42,002 nucleotides of DNA from a virus (taxonomy: Duplodnaviria > Heunggongvirae > Uroviricota > Caudoviricetes): IMG/VR virus record IMGVR_UViG_2563366918_000005; one strand, 5' to 3'. Under the pieces are notes generated by a model. It had not been told where the DNA came from and searched no databases. It saw only the letters and a program-made list of their open reading frames with translations. Shown here in pieces: positions 34,325 to 35,097 of this stretch (position 1 is its first letter; each line of letters starts with the position of its first letter). The position numbers and the translations under genes were made by a program.

Positions 34325-35097
34325 GCTTCAGGGCTGTTCCAGTGCGGAACGTTGTTATCAGGTAATGTTGATTGCTTCTGTCTGCTAATCTGCAGCCGCC
34401 TTGCCAGCTTCTGCTCCCACTGCGCCTGATGGTATGCCTTACCCTCAGCCATCCAGTAAATTCTGAACTCTGCAAGTTCCTGTGCCGTTGGCAGACTGTC
34501 CAGGTAGATCCCCTGCAATGAGCTTTTCCGAAGAAAGTCATCTGATGGTTGCCATTGTTCATGCATGACAAATTTGCCTAATTGCCCTGGCCCACCAGGA
34601 GGAACAAAGTTATTCATCACGGCGTTGTTTGCGCCGGGGTCATGAGGCACAGAATCCCCGCTTTTTGTCCTGCTCTCCCTCTCTTGGTTAAATGACTGGT
34701 TATATGACTGGTTCTGGATCCCGTTTTTGGGATCATTCAACATCCCGTTTTTGGGTATATTCCCGTTTTCGGTAACATTACCGTTTTCGGGTTCATTACC
34801 CCCTTCCCGGTTGCCTTTAATGTTCCCGTTTTTGGTTATATTAAGAGAGAAAACCCGCACTCTTTTCGTCGCTCCCTTTCTCTCTCCGGTATCTGAAATA
34901 AGCCCCATTTTCATGAGCGATATAAGCCCGGCCTGCACGGTTTTTTTATTCAGGCAAGTGTCTTTAACGAGGCGTTCTATGCTGGGGTAGCAGAGGTTAT
35001 ATTCATCGGCTCTGTCAGCCATCGAGAGCAGTATGAGCTTTAATGACGAGCTACCTGGATCTGTCTCCCAGGCCCAATCTGTTGCATGTCTGCTCAT
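34306..35097 (-). CDS. Replication initiator, lambda O-like (N-terminal HTH domain, Asn/Gly-repeat linker encoded by iteron-like repeats, C-terminal domain)
   Basis: N-terminal wHTH-like segment SLKLILLSMADRADEYNLCYPSIERLVKDTCLNKKTVQAGLISL. Sits immediately upstream of, and overlapping, the P-like gene. Internal DNA repeats. Confidence 0.6.
   Translation of the reverse strand: MSRHATDWAWETDPGSSSLKLILLSMADRADEYNLCYPSIERLVKDTCLNKKTVQAGLISLMKMGLISDTGERKGATKRVRVFSLNITKNGNIKGNREGGNEPENGNVTENGNIPKNGMLNDPKNGIQNQSYNQSFNQERESRTKSGDSVPHDPGANNAVMNNFVPPGGPGQLGKFVMHEQWQPSDDFLRKSSLQGIYLDSLPTAQELAEFRIYWMAEGKAYHQAQWEQKLARRLQISRQKQSTLPDNNVPHWNSPEAWEDFL
34728..34840. repeat. Six iteron-like direct repeats (T)CCCGTTTT(T/C)GG at ~14-19 bp spacing inside the O-like gene; candidate replication origin
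   Basis: Repeat cores start at 34730, 34744, 34762, 34780, 34806 and 34825. They encode the NGN(V/I)xENG protein repeats. Confidence 0.5.

What the first reader, a model, noticed from the sequence alone, without database searches (positions are those of the whole stretch)
34728..34840. Iteron-like direct repeats embedded in the lambda O-like initiator gene: probable ori, encoding an Asn-Gly repeat linker
Six copies of (T)CCCGTTTT(T/C)GG at 14-19 bp spacing are read off directly. On the coding (minus) strand they translate to ..NGNV.ENGNI.KNG.. repeats. The architecture parallels lambda, where ori iterons lie inside O and encode the inter-domain linker, and the adjacent gene is a clear lambda P homolog. 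No obvious AT-rich unwinding element is seen immediately downstream, and this should be looked for.
Basis: partly seen in the sequence, partly recalled or inferred. Interest (0 to 1): 0.5.

Follow-up and report, generated by a model that had tools for sequence, protein, structure and literature searches.

The report
Phage replication origin inside initiator gene
The repeats are very probably the replication origin of a phiV10-like E. coli phage, placed inside the gene for the protein that binds them as in phages lambda and phi80; this is an expected arrangement that nobody had annotated for this phage group.

Summary
The repeats are real. There are five good 16-bp copies, consensus TACCCAAAAACGGGAA on the coding strand, at 34718-34838. 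A sixth, degenerate piece is not conserved. Start-to-start spacing is 18-27 bp, not 14-19.

They lie in a 263-aa initiator gene (34306-35097, minus strand), between a winged-helix N-domain (Pfam HTH_36) and a C-domain homologous to E. coli DnaT. A lambda P-type helicase loader gene follows.

The evidence favours a DNA function over a peptide one:
- The same DNA motif sits at the same gene position in distant homologues from Vibrio, Edwardsiella, Acinetobacter and Burkholderia phages and EBPR podovirus 1.
- There it is read in all three frames: PKNG, TQKRD or PKTE.
- More distant N-domains carry different repeats.
- A phage that shares only the C-domain has none.
- Edwardsiella phage GF-2 joins this N-domain and repeats to the lambda O C-terminus.
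- The core matches the annotated gp15-binding iterons of phage phi80 (TTCCCGAAAACGGGAA).

A second conserved repeat, GAACCAGTCAT (34685-34717), abuts the last iteron where lambda has its AT-rich tract. It is only mildly AT-rich.

Verdict: probable origin, a new member of a known kind. The initiator is a functional analogue of lambda O, not a demonstrable homologue. No experiment was done.

The parts
34306..35097 (-). Replication initiator gene, 263 aa. It has an N-terminal winged-helix domain, a disordered linker encoded by the origin repeats, and a C-terminal DnaT-like domain.
   Evidence: ORF. Pfam HTH_36 aa 18-67 E 1.7e-10 and DnaT DNA-binding domain aa 176-244 E 1.1e-15. PHROG 1032 'replication initiation protein' E 1.5e-102. 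94-99% identical to phiV10 gp43 and relatives.
34837..35097 (-). Coding region for the N-terminal winged-helix DNA-binding domain (aa 1-87), the presumed iteron reader.
34823..34838 (-). Iteron 1, first in the coding direction: TAACCAAAAACGGGAA.
   Evidence: Three mismatches to the phi80 iteron.
34796..34810 (-). Degenerate pseudo-copy (CCGGGAAGGGGGTAA on the coding strand). Not a conserved iteron.
   Evidence: This stretch holds 7 of the 15 variable sites seen across the array in 58 close relatives. It does not match the motif searches.
34778..34793 (-). Iteron 2: AACCCGAAAACGGTAA.
34760..34775 (-). Iteron 3: TTACCGAAAACGGGAA. It differs by one base from the phi80 iteron TTCCCGAAAACGGGAA.
   Evidence: Ten close relatives have the exact phi80 16-mer at this position.
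34742..34757 (-). Iteron 4: TACCCAAAAACGGGAT.
   Evidence: Its 24-bp unit is the one whose copy number varies among relatives.
34718..34733 (-). Iteron 5, last in the coding direction: ATCCCAAAAACGGGAT, with 5-bp inverted arms ATCCC/GGGAT.
34685..34717 (-). Second repeat element: about 2.4 tandem copies of a 12-mer (coding strand CCAGAACCAGTCATAT AACCAGTCATTT AACCA), directly abutting the last iteron. It is the candidate unwinding or helicase-loading element, 39% GC.
   Evidence: TRF. phiV10 has one more unit. GAACCAGTCAT-type repeats follow the last iteron in the Vibrio, Edwardsiella, Burkholderia and EBPR homologues, in different frames. Its translation, QN[QLHR][SPT], lies exactly 1 aa after the last iteron peptide in 62 of 128 diverse family representatives. 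Duplex stability is only in the 5th-10th percentile.
34650..34684 (-). Purine-rich tract on the coding strand (AGAGAGGGAGAGCAGGACAAAAAGCGGGGATTCTG, 80% purine). It lies beyond the 12-mers. Whether it belongs to the origin is uncertain.
   Evidence: By position it parallels the purine-rich strand of the lambda AT-rich tract. This is inference only.
34327..34584 (-). Coding region for the C-terminal DnaT-like domain (aa 172-257). Presumed to contact the P-like loader, to bind single-stranded DNA, or both.
   Evidence: phmmer against the PDB: E. coli DnaT residues 85-170, E 6.4e-21 (9zbt_D, 4ou6_A). NCBIfam DnaT scores 85 bits against a cut-off of 201, so only this domain is shared.
33524..34324 (-). 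Lambda P-type helicase loader gene. It overlaps the initiator stop by 19 bp.
   Evidence: Pfam Phage_lambda_P E 1.7e-56. PHROG 109 'P-like helicase loader'. 31% identity to lambda P and 34.6% to phi80 gp14.
35720..35748 (-). PR-like sigma-70 promoter match (TTGTTA-17-TATTAT) upstream of the cro-like gene. It would drive transcription through the origin.
   Evidence: a consensus match only. The gene order is repressor (35849-36433, +), then cro-like (35464-35694, -), a terminator-like site (35423-35442, -), a small ORF, the initiator and P.

Best explanation
The segment at about 34650/34685-34838 is the replication origin (ori) of a phiV10-like (Uetakevirus) temperate phage, embedded in its own initiator gene.

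**Proposed mechanism.** Only the anatomy and its conservation are shown. The steps below are inferred by analogy with lambda and phi80.
1. Rightward-operon-type transcription from a PR-like promoter produces the initiator and the P-like loader, and passes through ori.
2. Dimers of the initiator's N-terminal winged-helix domain bind the five 16-bp iterons. Each iteron has short inverted arms ((A/T)(T/A)CCC...GGGA(T/A)) around an A-tract. Binding builds an O-some-like nucleoprotein complex.
3. The stress opens the adjacent DNA, most likely at the conserved GAACCAGTCAT 12-mer repeats that abut the last iteron.
4. The C-terminal DnaT-like domain recruits the P-like loader with host DnaB, and perhaps holds the exposed single strand, starting theta replication.

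Because the sites lie in the ORF, they are also translated into the Asn-Gly-rich disordered linker between the two domains. The peptide is a by-product of the DNA sites rather than the selected feature. Copy number drifts by whole units, from 5 to 12 in relatives.
For: **Shown here**
- The array is real and is the only iteron-like array in the window.
- It lies exactly between a confidently modelled winged-helix domain, whose last wing strand ends at residue 85, and a DnaT-like domain starting near residue 172.
- Homologues with N-domains 42-58% identical all carry arrays of the same DNA core (G/A)(T/A)CCCRAAAWYGGGA(Y) at the same gene position. These are Edwardsiella GF-2, E. coli PPompW, Vibrio H20, Acinetobacter AP22, Burkholderia Bcep176 and EBPR podovirus 1.
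- Spacings in those arrays are not multiples of 3: 17, 22, 25, 34 bp. The motif is therefore read in all three frames, as PKNG, TQKR(D/E) or PKTE.
- In 128 full-length family representatives at 50% identity or less, the three frame-specific peptides occur 321 times in the linker and 2 times elsewhere. Thirty-two proteins use two or more frames.
- More distant N-domains (29-36% identity; Aeromonas 56, Pseudomonas phi2, mEp021, ZF40) carry different 17-24-bp-spaced repeats at the same place. SPN1S, which shares only the DnaT-like C-domain, has none. The repeats therefore co-vary with the N-domain.
- GF-2 is a natural chimera: this N-domain and these repeats are joined to the lambda O C-terminal domain (62% identity over 144 aa, E 2e-67), with a lambda-ori-like right-arm palindrome and a lambda P gene. 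The module thus occupies the slot of lambda's O N-domain plus ori.
- phi80 gene 15 carries four sites annotated as gp15 binding sites, with core TTCCCGAAAACGGGAA. That 16-mer matches all five window iterons at 3 mismatches or fewer, against 0.26 expected and 0 of 100 shuffles. It is present exactly in ten close relatives.
- Rare codons are used in the iterons: CCC is 5% of Pro codons elsewhere in the window but 3 of 3 here; GGG is 17% of Gly codons elsewhere but 4 of 5 here.
- Relatives differ by whole 18- or 24-bp units.
- A P-type loader gene and a lambda-like immunity and early-operon layout flank the gene.

**Background.** Lambda ori maps inside O and consists of O-dimer-binding inverted-repeat iterons plus an AT-rich tract (PMC5043065). 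Stx phages have six iterons (PMC7466680). The DnaT C-domain binds single-stranded DNA (PMC4132743).
Against: - There is no experimental evidence of binding or origin activity for this phage group. I found none in the searchable literature.
- There is no lambda-type AT-rich tract. The 12-mer zone is 39% GC and only in the 5th-10th percentile for duplex instability. The least stable 20-mer in the gene is on the other flank, at 34835-34854.
- Iteron spacing here (18, 24 and 45 bp between real copies) is not the roughly 20-23 bp, two-turn spacing of lambda, phi80 and several homologues.
- All copies in this window are in one frame, so the window alone cannot separate DNA-level from peptide-level selection. 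The argument rests on homologues.
- SNP density in iteron cores versus spacers among close relatives (5 of 72 versus 10 of 69) is not decisive.
- The N-domain shows no significant sequence similarity to the phi80 or lambda initiators that read the most similar iterons. That is unexplained.
Confidence: 0.85

Rival explanations
1. The repeats are initiator-binding sites but not the site where replication starts. They would serve autoregulation, titration or copy control, or exclusion of related phages, while the true origin lies elsewhere in the phage.
For: - Iteron arrays in plasmids also act in negative control. This is general knowledge and is cited in PMC5043065.
- There is no strong AT-rich unwinding tract next to the array.
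- A perfect DnaA box flanked by two IHF-consensus matches lies 1.7 kb away, at 32977-33034.
Against: - No other iteron-like array exists in the 42-kb window.
- In the lambda and phi80 architecture the same kind of array at the same place is the origin (PMC5043065).
- The GF-2 chimera keeps the array next to a lambda-ori-like right arm.
- The conserved second repeat abutting the last iteron suggests a composite origin rather than a plain operator.
- One perfect DnaA box in 42 kb is within chance, given 11 hits at 1 mismatch or fewer against 9.7 expected.
Confidence: 0.08
2. The repeats are only a slippage-prone, low-complexity Asn-Gly linker selected at the protein level for flexibility or length. 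The DNA has no function of its own.
For: - All copies in this window are in frame, with spacings that are multiples of 3.
- The encoded segment is likely disordered: the first iteron-encoded residues 91-95 have pLDDT below 50, the rest being inference from the Asn-Gly-rich composition.
- Unit number is polymorphic, from 5 to 12.
Against: - The DNA motif, not the peptide, is what distant homologues conserve. It is read in three frames, giving PKNG, TQKRD or PKTE.
- Spacings of 17, 22 and 25 bp occur in Bcep176 and EBPR1.
- The rarest Pro codon, CCC, is used throughout.
- The motif has dyad symmetry and matches the annotated phi80 binding sites.
Confidence: 0.03
3. The shared iteron core is read by a host or other phage factor rather than by the adjacent N-domain. 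The evidence is that phi80 gp15 (Phage_rep_O) and this HTH_36 protein have unrelated sequences but the same motif.
For: There is no detectable sequence similarity between the two N-domain families despite near-identical iterons.
Against: - The repeat sequence changes when the HTH_36-type N-domain diverges further.
- The repeats disappear when the N-domain is replaced (SPN1S). This is the signature of a cis-linked reader and site pair.
- Both N-domains are HTH domains with a wing, and they align in the same topological register.
- The phi80 sites are annotated as gp15 sites.
Confidence: 0.04

Closest known systems
Phage phi80 origin (gene 15 iterons; gp15 initiator and gp14 loader)
   Same: - The iteron core is almost the same: phi80 TTCCCGAAAACGGGAA against window TTACCGAAAACGGGAA, AACCCGAAAACGGTAA and ATCCCAAAAACGGGAT.
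- The array lies inside the initiator ORF after the N-terminal DNA-binding domain.
- It is followed by GAACA/GAACAGT-type short repeats.
- The downstream gene is a P/gp14-type loader, 34.6% identical over 95% of its length.
   Different: - The phi80 gp15 N-domain is Pfam Phage_rep_O (E 6e-25) and has no significant BLASTP or hhalign similarity to this N-domain.
- phi80 has 4 sites at 20-21 bp spacing. The window has 5 sites at 18, 24 and 45 bp.
- phi80 keeps the lambda-type right-arm palindrome TCGTCCGAGAATTCTGACGAATCCTCTGAC, which the window lacks.
- The C-terminal domains differ.
Phage lambda origin (four iterons plus AT-rich tract inside gene O; O and P proteins)
   Same: - The overall architecture is the same: iterons with internal inverted symmetry and an A-tract centre (lambda ATCCCTCAAAACGAGGGA). 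They sit between the DNA-binding N-domain and the loader-recruiting C-domain and are translated into the linker.
- A P-type loader gene comes next.
- The early-operon layout is the same (PMC5043065).
   Different: - The initiator is not a demonstrable homologue of lambda O: no Phage_rep_O match and hhalign probability about 4%.
- The C-domain is DnaT-like rather than lambda O C-terminus.
- There is no 40-bp tract of 78% AT. In its place is a 33-bp 12-mer repeat that is 61% AT.
- There is no right-arm palindrome.
Origins of Stx phages (933W, P27), with six iterons
   Same: Iteron number varies between related phages by whole units. The extra iterons lie distal to the unwinding side (PMC7466680).
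   Different: Those phages use lambda-type O proteins and lambda-type iterons. Here the variation is larger, from 5 to 12 units, and occurs among near-identical prophages.
Iteron-type plasmid origins (RK2, R6K, pPS10, F, P1)
   Same: They also have arrays of initiator-binding direct repeats next to an unwinding element that contains its own short repeats (13-mers). The initiator has winged-helix DNA-binding domains (PMC5043065, PMC4980987).
   Different: - Plasmid iterons are intergenic, lack strong dyad symmetry and bind Rep monomers.
- DnaA boxes are usual in plasmid origins. None is present in 34600-34900.
- The fold search shows only generic winged-helix similarity.
E. coli DnaT (primosomal protein I, replication restart)
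   Same: The C-terminal domain (aa 172-257) is clearly homologous to DnaT residues 85-170, the single-stranded-DNA-binding three-helix-bundle region (PMC4132743).
   Different: - The N-terminal half is unrelated. The NCBIfam DnaT model scores 85 bits against a cut-off of 201.
- The database names 'primosomal protein' and 'DnaT' for this gene are therefore misleading. It is an origin-binding initiator that has borrowed the DnaT C-domain.

Membership tests
Lambdoid-type origin (iterons inside the initiator gene) | Array of at least 4 direct repeats of about 15-19 bp, each with internal inverted symmetry | tested here: met
   Five 16-bp copies. The arms ATCCC/GGGAT are clearest in copy 5. The motif is enriched over shuffles.
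Lambdoid-type origin (iterons inside the initiator gene) | Array lies within the initiator ORF, at the boundary between the DNA-binding N-domain and the C-domain | tested here: met
   The last wing strand of the N-domain ends at residue 85. The iterons encode aa 87-127. The C-domain starts near aa 172.
Lambdoid-type origin (iterons inside the initiator gene) | Repeats are conserved as DNA and co-vary with the initiator's N-domain | tested here: met
   The same motif appears in three reading frames across homologues. Distant N-domains carry different repeats. The repeats are absent when the N-domain is replaced.
Lambdoid-type origin (iterons inside the initiator gene) | Adjacent strongly AT-rich unwinding tract (lambda: about 40 bp, about 78% AT) | tested here: not met
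   The region beside the last iteron is 61% AT and in the 5th-10th percentile of duplex instability. It is a conserved 12-mer tandem repeat instead.
Lambdoid-type origin (iterons inside the initiator gene) | Helicase-loader (P-type) or helicase gene immediately downstream | tested here: met
   Pfam Phage_lambda_P E 1.7e-56. The gene overlaps the initiator stop.
Lambdoid-type origin (iterons inside the initiator gene) | Initiator binds the repeats, and the fragment supports replication | not testable with these tools
   This needs EMSA or footprinting and a plasmid replication assay.
Lambda O protein family (Pfam PF04492 Phage_rep_O N-domain plus lambda O C-domain) | N-terminal domain matches Phage_rep_O | tested here: not met
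   There is no Phage_rep_O hit even at E<=10; HTH_36 matches instead. hhalign to the lambda O and phi80 gp15 N-domains gives probabilities of 4-6%. Lambda O is not in the top 50 hits of the viral fold search.
Lambda O protein family (Pfam PF04492 Phage_rep_O N-domain plus lambda O C-domain) | C-terminal P-binding domain homologous to lambda O residues about 156-299 | tested here: not met
   BLASTP to lambda O finds nothing significant. The C-domain is DnaT-like. By contrast, the GF-2 homologue does carry the lambda O C-domain.
phi80-type iterons | Sequence match to TTCCCGAAAACGGGAA | tested here: met
   All five copies match at 3 mismatches or fewer, one of them at 1 mismatch. Expected 0.26. 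The exact 16-mer occurs in 10 close relatives.
phi80-type iterons | Regular spacing of about 20-21 bp, two helical turns | tested here: not met
   Spacing between real copies is 45, 18, 18 and 24 bp. phi80 has 20, 21 and 21 bp.
E. coli DnaT (primosomal protein I) | Full-length match to the DnaT equivalog model | tested here: not met
   NCBIfam NF002770 scores 85.1 bits against a cut-off of 201. Only residues 173-256 match.
Pfam HTH_36-type phage initiators (PHROGs 'replication initiation protein' and 'replication initiation O-like') | N-terminal HTH_36 winged helix at the protein's start, in a phage replication module | tested here: met
   Pfam E 1.7e-10. PHROG 1032 E 1.5e-102, plus PHROGs 391, 678 and 345 'replication initiation O-like'. 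The model is a winged helix.

The most novel reading that the evidence does not exclude
The CCCRAAAACGGG iterons together with the abutting GAACCAGTCAT repeats form an old, portable origin cassette.

- Two initiator N-domain families with no detectable sequence similarity would read it: Phage_rep_O in phi80 and lambda, and HTH_36 here and in hundreds of phage lineages. The DNA site would then be more conserved than the protein that reads it.
- The GAACCAGTCAT repeats would be a sequence-specific opening or single-strand-capture element, comparable to DnaA-trios or the 13-mers of plasmid unwinding elements. That would replace the need for an AT-rich tract.
Probability: 0.25. Interest if true: 0.6.

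Novelty: new member of a known kind. Interest (0 to 1): 0.35.

Why it matters
- **Annotation.** It gives a concrete, testable origin for the phiV10 group of epsilon15-like (Uetakevirus) phages. The segment is present in 421 of 5426 complete E. coli genomes, where the gene is annotated only as 'DnaT-like' or 'primosomal protein' and no origin is marked.
- **A recognition rule.** In the large HTH_36-type initiator family (3775 clusters at 50% identity), the origin can be spotted from the linker peptides PKNG, TQKRD or PKTE followed by QNQSLEPVIEP. These are translations of the DNA sites.
- **Two open questions.** Why do sequence-unrelated N-domains share the phi80-type iteron? And is the conserved 12-mer repeat a sequence-specific substitute for an AT-rich unwinding element?
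- **Practical uses.** Minimal replicons for vectors, incompatibility or exclusion typing of prophages, and correction of a widespread misannotation.

Tried and rejected
- **AlphaFold2 on the full protein without an alignment.** It failed (pLDDT 37.5). Only the N-domain model built with an alignment is used.
- **Remote homology to lambda O and phi80 gp15.** BLASTP and hhalign were not significant.
- **Genome-contig scan with the N-domain alignment.** It failed for lack of a conserved stretch.
- **Viral-contig scan.** It returned only near-identical relatives. These were useful for copy-number polymorphism but not for diversity.
- **SNP density in iteron cores versus spacers among close relatives.**
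  - The first attempt was invalid because of register shifts.
  - The corrected test was suggestive but not significant, 5 of 72 versus 10 of 69.
- **Codon-choice probability.** It is not a fair test on its own, because the copies are duplicates of each other.
- **Single-strand folding of the array.** No unusual structure, z = -1.4. The terminator-like hit at 34728-34747 (+) is simply iteron dyad symmetry.
- **DnaA boxes and IHF sites.** None lies within 34600-34900.
- **Literature.** Searches by sequence, by phage name and by concept found no description of this origin. The held library lacks most subscription journals, including the original phiV10, epsilon15 and phi80 papers.
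Full report
**1. What is in the sequence**

The window region 34306-35097 (minus strand) is a 263-aa ORF. On the + strand it contains five clear copies of a 16-bp unit:

| + strand coordinates | Sequence |
|---|---|
| 34718-34733 | ATCCCGTTTTTGGGAT |
| 34742-34757 | ATCCCGTTTTTGGGTA |
| 34760-34775 | TTCCCGTTTTCGGTAA |
| 34778-34793 | TTACCGTTTTCGGGTT |
| 34823-34838 | TTCCCGTTTTTGGTTA |

- The 11-mer CCCGTTTTYGG, with at most one mismatch, occurs five times here and once elsewhere in 42 kb. Shuffles give 1.36, and none of 100 shuffles reaches six.
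- Tandem Repeats Finder reports only three arrays in the whole window. Two of them are this array and a 12-mer repeat beside it.
- Start-to-start spacing, counting that piece, is 24, 18, 18, 18 and 27 bp, not 14-19.
- The array begins at 34718, slightly outside the stated start.

**2. The gene and its neighbours**

- The protein has a Pfam HTH_36 domain (aa 18-67, E 1.7e-10) and a DnaT DNA-binding domain (aa 176-244, E 1.1e-15). It does not match Phage_rep_O, the lambda O family.
- The C-domain is a clear homologue of E. coli DnaT residues 85-170 (E 6e-21 to PDB 9zbt_D and 4ou6_A). The full-length DnaT model is far below its cut-off, at 85 against 201 bits.
- An AlphaFold2 model of residues 1-95, built on a 70-sequence alignment, is confident (pLDDT 91.9). 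It shows a winged helix whose last wing strand ends at residue 85. The first iteron-encoded residues (91-95, the end of the modelled segment) have pLDDT below 50. The iterons therefore encode the start of the inter-domain linker.
- The next gene (33524-34324) is a lambda P-family loader: Pfam E 1.7e-56; 31% identity to lambda P and 34.6% to phi80 gp14.
- Upstream lie a small ORF, a terminator-like site, a cro-like gene, a PR-like promoter match and a divergent repressor gene. This is a lambda-like early operon.
- The whole module is 94-99% identical to phage phiV10 and other Uetakevirus genomes, where the gene is called 'putative primosomal protein'.

**3. Is the repeat selected as DNA or as peptide?**

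The result favours DNA.

- I fetched homologous initiator genes whose N-domains are 42-58% identical: Edwardsiella GF-2, E. coli PPompW prophages, Vibrio H20, Acinetobacter AP22, Burkholderia Bcep176 and EBPR podovirus 1.
- Every one has an array of the same DNA core at the same position, about nt 270-470 of the gene. Examples are ATCCCAAAATTGGGAT, GGCCCGAAAACGGTAC, GTCCCAAATTTGGGAC and GTCCCGAAATCGGGAC.
- Spacings in Bcep176 are 17, 17, 22, 22 and 22 bp. In EBPR1 they are 25, 34, 55 and 23 bp. The same DNA motif is therefore read in all three frames:

| Reading frame of the core | Peptide |
|---|---|
| CCC AAA AAC GGG | P-K-N-G |
| xCC CAA AAA CGG GAx | T-Q-K-R-D/E |
| CCA AAA ACG GAA | P-K-T-E |

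- Motif counts exceed codon-shuffled controls in each gene.
- An exhaustive HMMER search shows the N-domain family is large: 3775 clusters at 50% identity with E<=1e-3.
- Among the 128 full-length representatives listed:
  - the three frame-specific peptides occur 321 times in the linker (aa 81-190) and twice elsewhere;
  - 102 proteins use the PKNG frame, 20 the QKR frame and 21 the PKT frame;
  - 32 proteins use two or more frames.
- Within the window, the iterons use the rarest Pro codon CCC (5% elsewhere) in 3 of 3 cases and GGG (17% elsewhere) in 4 of 5. The copies are not independent, so this is weaker evidence.

**4. Co-variation and natural chimeras**

- N-domains that are more distant (29-36% identity) carry different repeats at the same gene position:

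| Phage | Repeat | Spacing (bp) |
|---|---|---|
| Aeromonas 56 | CCCCCGCAGAWKYTGC | 22-23 |
| Pseudomonas phi2 | CACCCCCGCAGGAAATGCA | 17-23 |
| mEp021 | GGGGTAGTGGCA | 22-23 |
| ZF40 | GTGCCACCAAAAAGCACAG | 21-24 |

- Salmonella phage SPN1S shares only the DnaT-like C-domain and has a different N-terminus. It has no such array.
- Edwardsiella phage GF-2 has this N-domain and these iterons fused to the lambda O C-terminal domain (62% identity over 144 aa, E 2e-67). It retains a lambda-ori-like right-arm palindrome and a lambda P gene.
- The N-domain plus repeats therefore behaves as one exchangeable cassette. It occupies the slot that in lambda holds the O N-domain plus ori.

**5. The link to phi80**

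- The RefSeq record of phage phi80 annotates four gp15 binding sites inside gene 15, spaced 20, 21 and 21 bp:
  - AACCGGAAACGGGAA
  - TTCCCGAAAACGGGAA
  - TTCCCGAAATCAGGAA
  - TTCCCGAAAACGGTA
- The 16-mer TTCCCGAAAACGGGAA matches all five window iterons at three mismatches or fewer, and copy 34760-34775 at one. Expected 0.26; 0 of 100 shuffles reach the observed count.
- Ten near-identical relatives of the window's gene carry that exact 16-mer.
- The lambda iterons (ATCCCTCAAAACGAGGGA) share the CCC...AAAAC...GGG plan.
- Yet phi80 gp15 and lambda O have Phage_rep_O N-domains. These show no significant BLASTP or hhalign similarity to the N-domain here, although the helix-turn-helix and wing align in the same register.
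- I cannot tell whether this reflects very old common ancestry or convergence.

**6. The unwinding element**

The least stable 20-mer of the gene is on the upstream flank (34835-34854). The downstream flank is only in the 5th-10th percentile of duplex instability.
- However, directly abutting the last iteron is a 12-mer tandem repeat: 34685-34717, coding strand CCAGAACCAGTCATAT AACCAGTCATTT AACCA, 39% GC.
- phiV10 has one more unit.
- The same kind of element follows the last iteron in the homologues, again in different frames and with spacings of 9, 10, 12 and 13 bp:

| Phage | Element after the last iteron |
|---|---|
| Vibrio H20 | AGAACCAGTCATT AGAACCAGTCAT AGAACC |
| GF-2 | AGAATCAGTCATT AGAACCCAACAT AGAATCAAACAT |
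| Bcep176 | GAACAGTAG, four copies |
| EBPR1 | GGAACAG, three copies |
| phi80 | AAGAACAAGAACAGTAT |

- In 62 of the 128 family representatives the peptide QN[QLHR][SPT] lies exactly one residue after the last iteron peptide.
  - In 33 it continues as E-P-x-x-E, meaning the second copy is read in another frame.
  - In 17 it continues as N-Q-S, the same frame as in this window.
- I take this to be the functional counterpart of lambda's AT-rich tract. That is inference from position and conservation.

**7. Population variation**

- Eighty near-identical loci from IMG/VR and 120 protein clusters from E. coli prophages differ mainly by whole 18- or 24-bp iteron units. They carry 5 to 12 units, giving proteins of 263-311 aa. 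The window has the short allele.
- Point variation concentrates in the degenerate piece. The central CCRAAAACGG is nearly invariant, although the core-versus-spacer contrast is not statistically decisive.
- The 261-bp origin segment occurs in 421 of 5426 complete E. coli genomes, usually once per genome. No origin is annotated there.

**8. Mechanism and confidence**

The best explanation (confidence about 0.85) is a lambda/phi80-type origin.

1. Winged-helix dimers bind the five iterons.
2. The adjacent 12-mer region opens.
3. The DnaT-like C-domain brings in the P-like loader with host DnaB, and may hold single-stranded DNA. The DnaT C-domain binds ssDNA (PMC4132743).
4. Transcription from the PR-like promoter passes through the site, as in lambda (PMC5043065).

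Only the anatomy and its conservation are shown here. Binding, opening and loading are inferred.

Rivals:
- The sites are bound by the initiator but serve control rather than initiation (0.08).
- The reader of the sites is not the adjacent N-domain (0.04).
- The repeats are a pure peptide-level linker (0.03). The frame analysis largely excludes this.

**9. Novelty**

- Origins inside the initiator gene have been textbook knowledge for lambdoid phages since the late 1970s (my own knowledge: Grosschedl and Hobom 1979; review PMC5043065). Iteron-number variation is also known (PMC7466680). This is therefore a new member of a known kind, and I score it modestly.
- I found no description of this origin, or of this iteron family in HTH_36-type initiators, in the searchable literature. 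That library omits most subscription journals.
- Three points might interest a specialist:
  - the identity of the iteron core across two sequence-unrelated N-domain families;
  - the family-wide second repeat that stands where an AT-rich tract is expected;
  - the use of a DnaT C-domain in place of the lambda O C-domain.

Noticed in passing
window 32977-33034: A perfect DnaA box, TTATCCACA (33013-33021, +), is flanked by two IHF-consensus matches (32977-32989 and 33022-33034, -). It lies in the gap between ORF 32416-33000 and the DUF1064 gene, about 1.7 kb downstream of the iterons. This may be chance, or it may be a host-factor site of the replication region.
   Followed up: no
L007 (Edwardsiella phage GF-2) 1201-2043: A natural chimeric initiator. 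An HTH_36 N-domain and CCCAAAATTGGG iterons are fused to the lambda O C-terminal domain (62% identity). The junction lies just before a lambda-ori-like palindrome, TCCGAGAATTCTGACGAATCCTCAGA.
   Followed up: partly
L100 (phage phi80) 1064-1140, compared with window 34718-34838: phi80 gp15 (Pfam Phage_rep_O) and the window's HTH_36-type initiator have no detectable sequence similarity. Their iterons nonetheless share the core TTCCCGAAAACGGGAA. I have no explanation.
   Followed up: partly
L010 (Salmonella phage SPN1S) 748-1563: This related Uetakevirus has an initiator with the same DnaT-like C-domain but a different N-terminus. It has no iteron array of this type and no P-like gene downstream; a DUF1064 gene follows directly. 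Its origin and helicase-loading route must therefore differ.
   Followed up: no
public records PP488543.1 (phage BP9, 138 kb Vequintavirus) and PP350014.1 (PH444, 115 kb): Both carry this Uetakevirus replication module at 96-99% identity, near a record end in BP9. They are probably chimeric assemblies or contamination by a prophage of the propagation host.
   Followed up: no
window 34306-35097, and 421 E. coli genomes: The gene is widely annotated as 'primosomal protein', 'DnaT' or even 'pyocin large subunit-like'. Only its C-terminal 85 residues are DnaT-like. It is an origin-binding initiator.
   Followed up: yes
window 35113-35376 (-): A small ORF lies between the cro-like gene and the initiator (PHROG 1081, function unknown). 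It is Cys/His-rich (CKHGH...CVEC) and has a weak match to an endonuclease VII family. It sits where lambda has cII.
   Followed up: no
window 34728-34747 (+): The terminator-like hit on the + strand is an artefact of the dyad symmetry between two adjacent iterons. It is not a real terminator.
   Followed up: yes
window 36357-36372 (+): A weak iteron-like match, TACCCGAAACCGAGAA (3 mismatches to the phi80 16-mer), lies inside the repressor gene. It is probably chance.
   Followed up: no
L094, L096, L099, L095 (Aeromonas 56, Pseudomonas phi2, mEp021, Pectobacterium ZF40): Each of these more distant HTH_36-type initiator genes has its own, different iteron-like array, spaced 17-24 bp, right after the N-domain. 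They are candidate origins that the records do not annotate.
   Followed up: partly
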